Assembly (NCBI GenBank): GCA_964016885.1
Contig: OZ024741.1
Coordinates: 119,908,001 to 119,972,000 of the forward strand
Reading direction: 5' to 3'
DNA from: Eledone cirrhosa
Lineage: Eukaryota
DNA: 64,000 nucleotides
Shown: positions 47,517 through 53,142 of the stretch, one piece after another
How positions within the stretch are numbered: position 1 is the stretch's first letter
Layout of the letters: every line of letters begins with the position of its first letter
Position numbers and translations under genes: made by a program
Notes under the pieces: model-generated
What the model saw: the letters and a program-made list of their open reading frames with translations, nothing else
Told to the model about the DNA's origin: nothing
Databases searched by the model: none

Positions 47517-47525
<9 letters not shown>

Positions 47526-48351
47526 TAAACAAATAATGAATAAAACAATGAAACAGTTCCTTATATTAAACAAAAAAAGTTCATTATTTAACGATCGTTT
47601 CTAGGATATATATGTGTTAGAATTGGCATGCATATTCAACAGATCTATGTACAAAATTATACAAAATTATACAAACTATCAAGATTAAATATACATACCA
47701 AACACACATATACGCCGTCTTCAGAAATAATGAAATATATTTATTGATAATAACAACAATTCAAAATTTCAGGTCCGTTTGGGAACAGAGTTCAAAATTG
47801 ACCAATGAAAATACAAAAGGTTTTATGCAGTTTGGTGTGTGTATATACATGTAACTAAACCCGTACACATATTTATACAAAGACATATGCTCAACATGCA
47901 TACGCATGCCAAAAAGATGCATGCAAATACAAAATTTCAAGGCTAATGTCTCTGTAAGTTTATAATGCACAGATAAAATGCGTATAGACACATAAATATG
48001 AAATAAGTGTATACACATATTCTCATACTCACACATATCCGTACACTCACACACACGCGCGCGTATATGCATAAACATACACATAATTACGAACATACAC
48101 ACACACACACACACCCACACACATATATATGTGGATATAATATTATCATAAGCACATGGATATTAATTCACTCACATAAACACTGCCACACACATTTAGA
48201 TCAAGATACAGAAATTAGGTGGGAGGGGGGGAGAGGTCAGTATTCAACGGTTTGGGCAGACTGCTTATTTATAGATGTATCTATAAACTAAGAAATAAAA
48301 AATAAAAAGGAAAGAAAAGAAAAAGAAAAAAGAAAAAAGAAATATATCAAG

Positions 48352-48423
<72 letters not shown>

Positions 48424-48497
48424 TACACACATCTACATATAGAACACACACACACACACATATATAAATATATACATATACATACATACACACATAT

Positions 48498-48546
<49 letters not shown>

Positions 48547-48833
48547 TACACATATAATCACACATACATATATAGACACACATATATATACACATACACA
48601 CACATATACATACACATACATACTTATATACATACAGACATACACATACATACCTATATATACACACACAAATACATACAGACATACATACATACATACA
48701 CACAAATACTTACACATCCATATATCGGTATATACATACAAACACCACTACACTCTCACACAACTCAGACATACAAAGAAAAAGGTATATACATATACAC
48801 ATATACACATACAAATAGAGATACATATACAAA

Positions 48834-48873
<40 letters not shown>

Positions 48874-49067
48874 CATACACATATACACACGTATATATAC
48901 ATACACATACATACATGTACACACACATACACATACATACATACACACATACACACATACATATATAGTCATACACACACATACACCTACACGAACATAC
49001 ACATACACATATATAAAGATACATATACACACACACATACACACACACATATATATAAAAAATAAAG

Positions 49068-49102
<35 letters not shown>

Positions 49103-49151
49103 TATACATACACATATACATACATACACATACATACATACATATACACAC

Positions 49152-49182
<31 letters not shown>

Positions 49183-49721
49183 TACATACATACACACACA
49201 ACATACATACACACACATATATACTCATACATAGACATAGATATATATTCATACATACATACGCACTTACATATACTCATATATACAAATACATACGCAT
49301 CCATATATGCGTATATACATACAAACACCACTACACTCTCACACAACTCAGACATACAAAGAAAAAGGTATATACATATATATATATATACACACATTAA
49401 TAGAGATACATATACACATATATATATATATATATATATACACATACATTTATATATATACCCACACACACATACAACCATAAACACACATACAAACACA
49501 TACAAACACATACATACACACATATATACATACATATATATACACACACACAAAAAACACACATACACATATATATTTTTACACATATATATACATATAT
49601 ATACATATACACACCCTCACATATATACACATACACATAAGTTATATTATAATAATAAATAATATATATATATATATATATACACATACGAATATACATA
49701 TATATACACACATAGATATAC

Positions 49722-49756
<35 letters not shown>

Positions 49757-51304
49757 CTCACATATATATGTGCGCACACGTACATTTGATTTCTATTTGC
49801 ATATAATTATATTCTGCTTTTGATAAAATACAATATCTGTTTTATTTATTATATACCTAATTAACATATACTATAGAAATTAATATATAATTTTTAATTT
49901 AGTTAACCTATAATTTATATTCTACTACCGATGTAATACTTTATTTGTTTTTTCCCTATTACTAAATTCATCTCCTAATATTGATACCATAACGTTAATA
50001 ACTTTAATTTAGTTATACTATAATTAATACTCTACTACTATTTAACTTCAAAATTCTGCTTCAAATATTATAAACCTAACTAATTTACACCTTAGAAATC
50101 AATATGTTAACTATCTTTAGTTTAGTTAACATATAATTAATGGTATACTTATTTTGAAATGCATAATTTTGCCTTATTTCTTGCATTTCCTAACACTGAA
50201 ACTATGTAAAAACATATATTGGGATCCAAATACAGATTAATATTCTATGTTTCTTGAAACATATATTTACTATAATCCCCTTCTCCACCCCCCCTTTCCC
50301 CCATACTATTATCATCTGTGTTTGTAAGCGTGTATGTATGAATATATATGTAGGTAGGTGTATATATGTTTGGGTGTTTATATCTGAGTATAAAAATACA
50401 TATATGCGCATGCAAATAAGAATGTATGATTGTGTGTGTATATATATGTGTGTATATATATATGTGTATATATGCATGTGTATATATATGTGTATATGTA
50501 TATATATATATATGAGTATATGTGTATATGTGTGTGGGCGTGTATGTGTATGTATATGTATATATATATATATGTGTGTATGTATGTGTATGTATATATG
50601 TGTATATTTATGTATGTCTCTCTATATATATGTATATCTTCGTATCTATGTGGGTATATGTGTGTATGTACATGTATGCACATGTATATGTTTATGTGTA
50701 TATGTGTGTATGTGTATATATGTACGTGTGCGCACATATATATGTGAGTGTGCGTGTGTATATATATATATATATATATGTATATCTATGTGTGTATATA
50801 TATGTATATTCGTATGTGTATATATATATATATATATTATTTATTATTATAATATAACTTATGTGTATGTGTATATATGTGAGGGTGTGTATATGTATAT
50901 ATATGTATATATATGTGTAAAAATATATATGTGTATGTGTGTTTTTTGTGTGTGTGTATATATATGTATGTATATATGTGTGTATGTATGTGTTTGTATG
51001 TGTGTTTATGGTTGTATGTGTGTGTGGGTATATATATAAATGTATGTGTATATATATATATATATATATGTGTATATGTATCTCTATTAATGTGTGTATA
51101 TATATATATATGTATATACCTTTTTCTTTGTATGTCTGAGTTGTGTGAGAGTGTAGTGGTGTTTGTATGTATATACGCATATATGGATGCGTATGTATTT
51201 GTATATATGAGTATATGTAAGTGCGTATGTATGTATGAATATATATCTATGTCTATGTATGAGTATATATGTGTGTGTATGTATGTTGTGTGTGTATGTA
51301 TGTA

Positions 51305-51335
<31 letters not shown>

Positions 51336-51400
51336 GTGTGTATATGTATGTATGTATGTGTATGTATGTACATATATGTGTATGTATATGTGTATGTATA

Positions 51401-51435
<35 letters not shown>

Positions 51436-51629
51436 TTATTTTTTATATATATGTGTGTGTGTGTATGTGTGTGTGTATATGTATCTTTATATATGTGTAT
51501 GTGTATGTTCGTGTAGGTGTATGTGTGTGTATGACTATATATGTATGTGTGTATGTGTGTATGTATGTATGTGTATGTGTGTGTACATGTATGTATGTGT
51601 ATGTATATATACGTGTGTATATGTGTATG

Positions 51630-51671
<42 letters not shown>

Positions 51672-51956
51672 TGTATATGTATCTCTATTTGTATGTGTAT
51701 ATGTGTATATGTATATACCTTTTTCTTTGTATGTCTGAGTTGTGTGAGAGTGTAGTGGTGTTTGTATGTATATACCGATATATGGATGTGTAAGTATTTG
51801 TGTGTATGTATGTATGTATGTCTGTATGTATTTGTGTGTGTATATATAGGTATGTATGTGTATGTCTGTATGTATATAAGTATGTATGTGTATGTATATG
51901 TGTGTGTATGTGTATATATATGTGTGTCTATATATGTATGTGTGATTATATGTGTA

Positions 51957-52013
<57 letters not shown>

Positions 52014-52087
52014 ATATGTGTGTATGTATGTATATGTATATGTTTATATATGTGTGTGTGTGTGTGTTCTATATGTAGATGTGTGTA

Positions 52088-52173
<86 letters not shown>

Positions 52174-53142
52174 CTTGATATATTTCTTTTTTCTTTTTTC
52201 TTTTTCTTTTCTTTCCTTTTTATTTTTTATTTCTTAGTTTATAGATACATCTATAAATAAGCAGTCTGCCCAAACCGTTGAATACTGACCTCTCCCCCCC
52301 TCCCACCTAATTTCTGTATCTTGATCTAAATGTGTGTGGCAGTGTTTATGTGAGTGAATTAATATCCATGTGCTTATGATAATATTATATCCACATATAT
52401 ATGTGTGTGGGTGTGTGTGTGTGTGTGTATGTTCGTAATTATGTGTATGTTTATGCATATACGCGCGCGTGTGTGTGAGTGTACGGATATGTGTGAGTAT
52501 GAGAATATGTGTATACACTTATTTCATATTTATGTGTCTATACGCATTTTATCTGTGCATTATAAACTTACAGAGACATTAGCCTTGAAATTTTGTATTT
52601 GCATGCATCTTTTTGGCATGCGTATGCATGTTGAGCATATGTCTTTGTATAAATATGTGTACGGGTTTAGTTACATGTATATACACACACCAAACTGCAT
52701 AAAACCTTTTGTATTTTCATTGGTCAATTTTGAACTCTGTTCCCAAACGGACCTGAAATTTTGAATTGTTGTTATTATCAATAAATATATTTCATTATTT
52801 CTGAAGACGGCGTATATGTGTGTTTGGTATGTATATTTAATCTTGATAGTTTGTATAATTTTGTATAATTTTGTACATAGATCTGTTGAATATGCATGCC
52901 AATTCTAACACATATATATCCTAGAAACGATCGTTAAATAATGAACTTTTTTTGTTTAATATAAGGAACTGTTTCATTGTTTTATTCATTATTTGTTTAA
53001 TATTTTATCTTGACTCTGTATACCGTTTATCTTTCACCGAAAGTGATTTTTCATTACATCTCTTCTTTCCATGATATCCGGAATACATTGAGTTCTTCAT
53101 ACGGATTGGACACTACCGTAAACGCTTGGTAGATTTATCTAC
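47517..53142. mobile_element. 5.5-kb inverted-repeat non-coding element with microsatellite-like body; HHRs at 47580-47734 (-) and 52791-52945 (+)
   Basis: Arms 47517-49785 and 50720-53008 are near-identical reverse complements. The tail 53009-53142 is homologous to the reverse complement of 20296-20440. Confidence 0.85.

What the first reader, a model, noticed from the sequence alone, without database searches (positions are those of the whole stretch)
47517..53142. 5.5-kb palindrome whose body is microsatellite-like, with a hammerhead in each arm
Seen: two ~2.27-kb arms (47517-49785, 50720-53008) that are reverse complements even through degenerate (TG/TA)n sequence, a 0.93-kb spacer and a 135-bp tail. 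An HHR with a 10-bp stem I (ttcattattt/aaataatgaa) lies in each arm. This is the same hairpin-plus-tail geometry as the 300-600-bp elements but ten times larger. Inference: a non-autonomous PLE-type element that retrotransposes kilobases of simple-repeat sequence, a possible route for spreading cephalopod low-complexity DNA. 1950-2880 and 13410-15130 show the same TG/TA-rich body followed by an HHR. A transcript would form ~2.3 kb of dsRNA (ADAR or siRNA substrate).
Basis: partly seen in the sequence, partly recalled or inferred. Interest (0 to 1): 0.75.

Follow-up and report, generated by a model that had tools for sequence, protein, structure and literature searches.

The report
Penelope retrotransposon carrying a growing microsatellite
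The 5.6-kb palindrome is two back-to-back, truncated copies of a protein-coding Penelope-like jumping gene, likely written into a TA repeat from both cut DNA ends at once; the kind is known, but this lineage carries about 1.5 kb of simple-repeat DNA that its older-looking relatives lack or hold in small form, likely a record of a microsatellite being born and growing inside an active transposon.

Summary
The palindrome is real: arms 47517-49785 and 50720-53008 are 97% reverse-complementary, each with a predicted hammerhead. It is not a non-autonomous element. It is a 5'-truncated insertion of a Hydra-clade Penelope-like retrotransposon. Full copies elsewhere in the genome are 5.9-6.9 kb and encode an 813-aa telomerase-like RT plus GIY-YIG endonuclease; the simple-repeat body is their 3' UTR. 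Insertions sit in (TA)n and mostly have two arms that end at two fixed sites 137 nt apart. Arm lengths vary freely, and either arm can reach further in. This fits cDNA synthesis from both cut ends followed by end-joining (inferred). The two-arm/one-tail layout is published, and this scan found it earlier in other families of this genome. Penelope-borne SSRs are published for shrimp. What I did not find described is a subfamily ladder: the 3' UTR goes from about 0.72 kb with no microsatellite, to 1.25 kb with 0.23 kb, to 3.5 kb with 1.5 kb, always TG-rich on the sense strand. The long-UTR subfamilies add roughly 2.4 Mb, or 0.08% of the genome, so they are a real but minor route of spread. dsRNA, editing and siRNA claims are untested.

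The parts
47460..47516 (.). (TA)n target run, left flank; a separate small hammerhead repeat ends in the same run
   Evidence: sequence; all terminal ends of this family abut TA-like runs
47517..49785 (-). left arm: 2269-bp antisense copy of the element 3' end, starting at fixed site D (no tail)
47580..47734 (-). type I hammerhead motif, copy in left arm
48355..49785 (-). microsatellite-like body, partial antisense copy
49785..49786 (.). head-to-head junction of the two arms; 1-nt overlap read by eye; junction sequence occurs once in the genome
   Evidence: script did not resolve this junction
49785..53145 (+). right arm: 3361-bp sense copy of the 3' UTR, hammerhead and tail of the Hydra-clade PLE, truncated about 0.6 kb downstream of the ORF stop
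49786..50330 (+). unique AT-rich UTR segment (part of the 'spacer'); 2095 first-look candidates genome-wide, best 40 at 98-100%
50331..52170 (+). microsatellite-like UTR body, 75% alternating tract, TG far above CA on the sense strand, inherited among copies
52719..52797 (+). candidate promoter block: conserved ATTGG motif at 52719 and initiator-like TCATT; many short arms of the family end at the A at 52794 (candidate transcript start, inferred)
52791..52945 (+). type I hammerhead motif: 10-bp stem I, CUGAAGA core, 116-nt stem II region, 3-bp stem III with palindromic loop, predicted cleavage after 52935 (GUU)
53008..53008 (+). fixed end D (inferred RT start site 1); D followed by TA occurs 2244 times as an exact 24-mer
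53009..53145 (+). 137-bp tail between the two fixed ends; fixed end T at 53145 (inferred RT start site 2); T followed by TA occurs 6609 times as an exact 22-mer, shared with older subfamilies and other repeats
53146..53158 (.). (TA)n target run, right flank

Best explanation
The palindrome is one recent insertion of an autonomous Hydra-clade Penelope-like retrotransposon, made of two head-to-head truncated copies of the element's 3' end that were likely synthesised from both cut ends of a (TA)n target and joined in the middle. SHOWN: the family has a 5.9-6.9-kb unit with an 813-aa RT+GIY-YIG ORF and a ~3.5-kb 3' UTR. Arms end at two fixed sites 137 nt apart, always against TA-like runs, nearly always one of each. 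Arm lengths vary, and either arm may reach further in. The two arms share private variants. Junctions show 0-4-nt overlaps or short insertions. INFERRED: the endonuclease cuts both strands in (TA)n, and each 3' end primes reverse transcription on RNA from one source locus, one at site D and one at site T, helped by 2-3 nt of TA pairing. The two incomplete cDNAs are joined by microhomology-type end-joining. Short 250-800-bp hairpins arise when copying runs off an RNA 5' end just before the hammerhead core. SHOWN: the simple-repeat body is inherited UTR sequence, absent in subfamily D, ~0.23 kb in C and ~1.5 kb in A/B. INFERRED: it was born at one UTR site and grew by slippage and unit duplication in successive source elements, each round of retrotransposition fixing the longer version.
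For: ORF and Hydra motifs; model pLDDT 85, best fold matches are telomerase RTs. Copy maps. Ends: of 90 matches (some insertions fetched twice), 21 stop at D, 60 at T (base 193-200), 9 run on into a tandem unit. Pairing: among loci taken in order along C1 with both ends in view, 10 of 11 D-anchored had a T partner and 7 of 7 T-anchored had a D partner (p = 0.00014 for 17 of 18 against 0.5). D arm reaches further than the T arm in 4 of 14 simple two-armed insertions. Arms differ less than the median to other copies in 18 of 19 inverted pairs; window 0 differences in 598 against median 11. Junctions: 15 of 29 with 1-4-nt overlap, 2 blunt, 12 with insertions or unresolved. 17 of 48 hammerhead-bearing arms end at the 52794-equivalent A. 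Body inherited. Ladder: (100/100; alternative rejected, p-AU 3e-5), ages in the same order. In vitro precedent: a PLE protein cuts and extends both strands and starts RT at two sites that bound the tail (PMC11167929).
Against: No de novo insertion, RNA or enzyme was observed; all mechanism steps come from genomic footprints. A protein tree with very distant outgroups put the root near A/B instead (SH-aLRT 94, quick search, decayed D rows), and the short 350-column DNA tree did not reject that alternative (p-AU 0.057). Two D/D insertions were seen (L061, L080), and L061 is palindromic for over 200 bp into its flanks, which suggests a different origin there. Arm likeness could partly come from gene conversion. 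C and D sets were chosen by likeness to one copy each, with 1.5-kb flanks: 4 of 24 C loci and 5 of 24 D loci gave no UTR measurement, and a long UTR would have been missed there. Beyond the body, A does not align with C except for the last ~70 bp, so the shared site rests mainly on the left flank and some A/B UTR may be captured host DNA.
Confidence: 0.8

Rival explanations
1. One arm is a copy of the other, made by fold-back or self-priming of the first cDNA or of an antisense template, or by an inverted duplication after insertion, rather than by a second priming on RNA.
For: Arms are near-identical in unique sequence. Self-priming on an antisense template was proposed for rotifer PLE inverted junctions (PMC3846280, passages). 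L061 is symmetric into its flanks; L039 has a near-symmetric junction.
Against: In 4 of 14 insertions the tail-less arm holds sequence missing from the tailed arm while the tailed arm holds the tail, so neither can be a copy of the other. Most junctions join unrelated positions. The D end is fixed at 2244 exact sites.
Confidence: 0.1
2. A dedicated non-autonomous family with a microsatellite body, mobilised in trans.
For: The window copy has no ORF. Only 86 exact ORF starts against 2244 D ends. The three full units of one tandem array share a reading frame that stops at 164 aa, so trans mobilisation of broken copies likely occurs.
Against: The body runs straight into the ORF in most long copies, with truncation points scattered along UTR and ORF. 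The window's junction occurs once in the genome.
Confidence: 0.04
3. The long UTR was gained in one step by capture of host low-complexity DNA, not by growth of an internal microsatellite.
For: Pen1_Av has 0.9-1.5-kb 3' spacers ascribed to host DNA capture (PMC3846280, passages). The segment between body and hammerhead in A does not align with C or D except the last ~70 bp. No intermediate between 1.6 and 2.8 kb was sampled.
Against: C already has a 170-418-bp tract inserted between two segments that are adjacent in D, and the A body follows the same left flank. The 5' part of the A UTR is made of internal duplications of C/D-like sequence.
Confidence: 0.2
4. Assembly or fold-back read artefact.
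For: Long low-complexity palindromes are error-prone. The read-laying tool skipped the repeat side of the junction, so this locus was not checked in reads.
Against: 934-bp spacer and one-sided tail. Different flanks. Arms differ by 7 indels and 11 substitutions. Both ends fall on the family's fixed sites shared by thousands of loci.
Confidence: 0.02

Closest known systems
Hydra clade of C-terminal EN+ Penelope-like elements (Craig et al. 2021, PMC8557442; includes Hydra-1_Obim, 2507 bp)
   Same: RW(K/R), DKT, CxCx5C linker, CxxC and CxH around conserved E and N, no GxKF; (TA)n target; hammerhead with extra base after the core; inverted 5'-truncated copy, partial tandems and one-sided tail
   Different: Unit 5.9-6.9 kb against 1.1-3.0 kb for the 27 families listed (supplement S1); ~3.5-kb 3' UTR with ~1.5 kb of simple repeat; 137-nt tail against the 30-40 bp described; hammerhead stem II region of 100-125 nt; a ~95-aa low-confidence N/K/T-rich linker in the ORF
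Poseidon_Ac in vitro mechanism (Frangieh et al. 2024, PMC11167929)
   Same: Two fixed ends bounding a tail; AT-rich target; copying passes through the uncut hammerhead
   Different: There the start sites are 111-118 nt into the ORF and lack homology to the cut DNA; here they lie upstream of the ORF, 137 nt apart, and end in TAT or ATA that could pair with a TA primer. In the parts I read, that paper does not model the inverted arm as a second priming.
SSR-carrying Penelope copies of Litopenaeus vannamei (Yuan et al. 2021, PMC7878876)
   Same: Young (>98% identical) Penelope copies whose internal SSRs move with the element and lengthen
   Different: In the passages read, no subfamily series from no microsatellite to kilobases, no strand polarity, no two-armed doubling of the cargo
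Pen1_Av of Adineta vaga (Arkhipova et al. 2013, PMC3846280)
   Same: Long non-coding spacer between ORF and 3' pLTR; inverted pLTRs; microhomology junctions
   Different: Those spacers differ between copies and were ascribed to host capture; here the spacer is shared by all young copies and is simple-repeat
L1 twin priming (recalled; listed in search, papers not read)
   Same: Two primers, inverted cDNAs joined by microhomology
   Different: Twin priming copies adjacent, non-overlapping parts of one RNA; here both cDNAs start at fixed 3' sites and overlap by kilobases, giving a palindrome

Membership tests
Penelope-like elements (EN+) | Single ORF with telomerase-like RT | tested here: met
   813-aa ORF; YRDD motif; model's best fold matches are TERTs, E 6e-9. 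Pfam gave no hit for this protein itself.
Penelope-like elements (EN+) | C-terminal GIY-YIG endonuclease | tested here: met
   VY...YIG motif at 694-709, Y694, Y707 and G709 invariant in 65 homologues; 3 of 65 members hit PF01541 weakly. Activity not tested.
Penelope-like elements (EN+) | Partial tandems (pLTR), inverted 5'-truncated copy, one-sided tail | tested here: met
   definition from PMC8557442 passages
Penelope-like elements (EN+) | Hammerhead ribozyme in the pLTR | tested here: met
   motif and fold, kept over subfamilies A-F; not called by Rfam
Penelope-like elements (EN+) | Hammerhead self-cleavage and retrotransposition activity | not testable with these tools
   needs bench work
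Hydra clade | RWK motif, DKT in place of DKG, no GxKF/Y | tested here: met
   RWR at 37, DKT at 115, no G.KF (definition)
Hydra clade | CxCX5C linker; CxxC and CxH around conserved E and N | tested here: met
   positions 673, 771, 790
Hydra clade | Insertion into (TA)n | tested here: met
   exact counts
Hydra clade | Short length (<3 kb, described as general) | tested here: not met
   units 5872-6900 bp; descriptive trait, and older subfamilies with 0.5-0.9-kb UTRs are close to that size
Hydra clade | Placement among named Hydra RTs in a tree | not tested
   named Hydra sequences were seen only in the supplement and compared by eye: motifs are colinear
Non-autonomous PLE derivative / non-LTR retrozyme | No coding capacity in the family; short tandem monomers or a shared internal deletion | tested here: not met
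   family has an ORF, truncation points are scattered, junction is unique

The most novel reading that the evidence does not exclude
The element is a microsatellite ratchet driven by RNA editing: (UA)n tracts in its RNA fold into duplexes, ADAR turns some A into I, reverse transcription fixes them as G, and each new copy both lengthens the tract and makes new (TA)n targets. This would explain why the UTR tracts of this lineage and of at least three other PLE families are TG-rich and almost CA-free on the sense strand (316:19 here; flanks 193:221), and would make PLEs a writer of strand-polarised TG/TA DNA.
Probability: 0.12. Interest if true: 0.8.

Novelty: new variant of a known kind. Interest (0 to 1): 0.45.

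Why it matters
It explains the palindrome and the small hairpin-plus-tail repeats as long and short products of one reaction. It also gives a young family with open ORFs, two base-exact start sites and thousands of footprints for testing how Penelope elements make inverted ends, which is still unresolved. The subfamily ladder is an ordered record of a microsatellite appearing and growing five-fold a retrotransposon's UTR, so slippage rate, strand bias and any editing can be measured.

Tried and rejected
Rfam scan: no hammerhead family at gathering score. Pfam on the ORF: nothing useful; PDB sequence search only a weak retron RT hit with the profile, E 0.017. RNA: no RNA holder listed, so nothing follows on expression. 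Reads over the junction: the tool skipped 49690-49780 as repeat, so the junction was not tested. The second lay showed contigs of the family over 30, 30, 23 and 29 of 30 bins in four coded runs from three studies, and no strand-change joint was listed. A-to-I signature in unique sequence: none. ORF A>G 10 vs T>C 11, 3' unique part 10 vs 10 among young copies; lineage branches 9 vs 15, 7 vs 8, 8 vs 9. In the body A>G exceeds T>C (35 vs 11 and 16 vs 0; isolated TG 52 vs CA 1), but slippage that shifts or duplicates existing TG units can give the same counts, so I do not count it as proof. A>G changes in the hammerhead stems are also expected from selection for pairing. Rooting with distant proteins disagreed with the ladder and was superseded by a closer outgroup on 1237 columns, not discarded. 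The automatic end-pairing mislabelled internal tandem joints as T/T (L032, L050, L070, L083); these were not counted as outer pairs. Target-site duplication cannot be read inside (TA)n. A search of earlier notes by this sequence found nothing. Literature searches for a subfamily series of UTR microsatellite growth, a two-ended priming model for PLEs, or edited copies fixed by retrotransposition (listings only for most hits) showed none. The library lacks most subscription papers and Repbase, and bioRxiv supplements were not readable.
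Full report
1. Observation. The two arms are real and lie where stated: 47517-49785 against the reverse complement of 50720-53008, 97.3% over 2307 columns. They are identical for the first 838 bp, and the 11 substitutions and 7 indel events all lie from 48354 inwards. Each arm has a type I hammerhead motif with a 10-bp stem I. 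It folds far better than shuffles (z -6.7) but is not called by Rfam. The body 50331-52170 is 75% alternating purine/pyrimidine tract, against 8.9% for the rest of the window.

2. What it belongs to. Searching the genome (3.0 Gb) with the two unique segments gave 1878 and 2095 first-look candidates, the best 40 of each at 98-100%. I fetched 40 stretches around such hits and mapped them. The 'spacer' continues upstream into a long ORF: 813 aa, open in L035, L047 and L070; L064 gives 822 aa with a changed end; L032, L050 and three array units are interrupted. It has the Hydra-clade motifs defined by Craig et al. (PMC8557442, section 11 read): RWR, DKT, CxCx5C, CxxC and CxH, and no GxKF. 107 homologues of 33-48% identity were found, essentially unnamed. 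A model built on 65 rows (pLDDT 85) matches telomerase RTs best, as expected for a PLE RT. Full units are 5872-6900 bp and occur in head-to-tail arrays of up to four or five. So the window holds a 5'-truncated insertion of an autonomous family, and the simple-repeat body is 3' UTR. The junction of the arms occurs once in the genome, which argues against a separate non-autonomous family.

3. How the palindrome is likely made. Of 90 matches to the segment behind the hammerhead (some insertions were fetched twice), 21 end at site D (window 53008), 60 at site T (53145, range of 7 nt) and 9 run on into a tandem unit; all terminal ones abut TA-like runs. Exact counts are 2244 for D followed by TA and 6609 for T followed by TA, the latter shared with older subfamilies and other repeats. 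In 40 stretches chosen from the first listed hits along C1, both outer ends were called in 18: 17 were D/T and 1 was D/D (internal tandem joints removed; p 0.00014 against 0.5). The rest had no partner end in the fetched stretch or belonged to other families. In 4 of 14 simple two-armed insertions the tail-less arm reaches further into the element than the tailed arm, so neither is a copy of the other. Yet arms of one insertion share private variants: 18 of 19 inverted pairs differ less than the median to other copies, and the window pair differs at 0 of 598 bases against a median of 11. Of 29 junctions, 15 show 1-4-nt overlaps, 2 are blunt, and 12 have insertions or were unresolved; two insertions copy neighbouring sequence. 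That pattern is, from my own knowledge, typical of microhomology-mediated end-joining. Frangieh et al. (PMC11167929, parts 1-2 of 4 read) showed that a PLE protein cuts and extends both strands, starts at two RNA sites that bound the tail, and uses uncut RNA. I infer that both ends of a break in (TA)n prime on RNA from one source, one at D and one at T, and that the two cDNAs are joined. The inverted copy and tail are long-known PLE traits (PMC8557442 passages; PMC3846280 passages), and earlier notes of this scan reached a similar reading for other families here. One added feature: 17 of 48 hammerhead-bearing arms in the in-order sample stop within about 3 nt of the A at 52794, inside an initiator-like TCATT with a conserved ATTGG motif upstream. 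This may be the transcript start and would explain many 250-800-bp hairpins; a stop caused by cDNA folding is the alternative. PLE hammerheads with short palindromic helix III are reported to work weakly and as dimers (PMC4209133 passages); activity here is untested.

4. The microsatellite cargo. All 31 other copies with both flanking anchors carry the body (1057-2641 bp) and share 30-70% of collapsed 24-mers with the window's; eight control regions rich in simple repeats share at most 1%. An exact internal marker occurs 700 times, up to twice per body. The in-order sample also contained more distant relatives, which I followed with two more searches. Measuring ORF stop to hammerhead: subfamily D (about 85% identical in the endonuclease region, n = 19) has a median UTR of 721 bp and no tract; C (about 90%, n = 22) 1248 bp with a median 232 bp of tract; A and B (95-100%, n = 29 and 9, four rows from one array) about 3.5 kb with about 1.5 kb. 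Four of 24 C loci and 5 of 24 D loci gave no measurement, and the 1.5-kb flanks would hide a long UTR there. The C tract sits between two segments that are adjacent in D, and the A body follows the same left flank; the 5' part of the A UTR consists of internal duplications. With a sister family F (63-66% amino-acid identity in the endonuclease, UTR about 530 bp) as outgroup, 1237 ORF columns give F,(E,(D,(C,(A,B)))) with 100/100 support for C+A+B and reject C+D+E as a clade (p-AU 3e-5). A 350-column version gave the same tree without rejecting the alternative, and a protein tree with far outgroups rooted near A/B. Copy decay follows the ladder: 1.9%, 0.8% and 0.16% from each set's majority, though each set was picked by likeness to one copy. 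The 27 Hydra families in Craig's supplement are 1.1-3.0 kb. SSRs moving with young Penelope copies are reported in shrimp (PMC7878876 passages), and microsatellite birth inside L1 and Alu is reviewed in PMC3812793 (passages). I found no report of such a subfamily series (searches; open-access library only). Passages of PMC13282606 and PMC3124438 and the abstract of 10.64898/2026.07.22.740005 added only context.

5. Size of the effect. Twenty-one insertions in the D-anchored stretches hold a mean of 1077 bp of tract, 13 of them over 500 bp, some cut by the stretch edge. Times 2244 this is about 2.4 Mb, 0.08% of the genome. If the window's 8.9% tract content were typical, that is about 1% of such DNA. 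The route is real and minor for these subfamilies; other PLE families in the window have their own TG/TA-rich UTRs.

6. Strand polarity and editing. New-looking A>G exceeds T>C in the body, but slippage of existing TG units can mimic this, and ORF and unique UTR show no excess. A TG seed amplified by slippage is the simpler account; editing fixed by reverse transcription stays open at low odds. No RNA data were available, so the dsRNA claim is untested.

7. Verdict. Observation confirmed; interpretation partly supported. It is a new, unusually long variant of a known clade. The architecture is known; the ladder of UTR microsatellite growth, the strand polarity and the truncation hot spot are the parts worth following. 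Interest 0.45.

Noticed in passing
L068, L108, L109, L138, L143, L145, L147, L151, L152, L156, L159, L160, L186; same repeat at window ~14105-14220: A ~200-bp SINE-like repeat (label recalled, not tested) is inserted at the same spot, directly before the hammerhead core, in 13 loci of several subfamilies, twice in some. It suggests a sequence-specific insertion into the PLE ribozyme.
   Followed up: no
G000:C1:126835400-126863940 (L051-L054): Array of one inverted arm plus about four tandem units, identical in unique 3' sequence (0-1 differences in 598) but with bodies of 1739-2150 bp; the three full ORFs all stop at 164 aa. It suggests copying from one multimeric or circular template in trans.
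   Followed up: partly
L061:1290-7595: D/D insertion whose two flanks are inverted copies for over 200 bp: inverted duplication after insertion or an assembly artefact.
   Followed up: partly
window 46852-47466: A ~456-bp direct-repeat unit with a canonical-looking hammerhead at 47160-47239 ends in the same (TA)n run as the left arm; retrozyme-like.
   Followed up: no
window 20297-20752: Short hairpin-plus-tail insertion of sister family F with the same hammerhead layout and matching D and T ends; its full copies have a ~530-bp UTR with a small separate TG/TA tract.
   Followed up: yes
window 12690-15130 and 7983-8138: Remnants of other Hydra-type ORFs (37-43% identity); the first is two-armed and has a 1.7-kb TG/TA-rich 3' UTR with a decayed hammerhead.
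   Followed up: partly
window 24796-24867 and 38621-38692: Two similar tRNA-like hits on the minus strand inside a repeat, probably SINE heads.
   Followed up: no
L073:~4900-4960: The T-side arm is only about 16 nt long and is repeated three times before the long D arm: repeated re-priming at site T.
   Followed up: no
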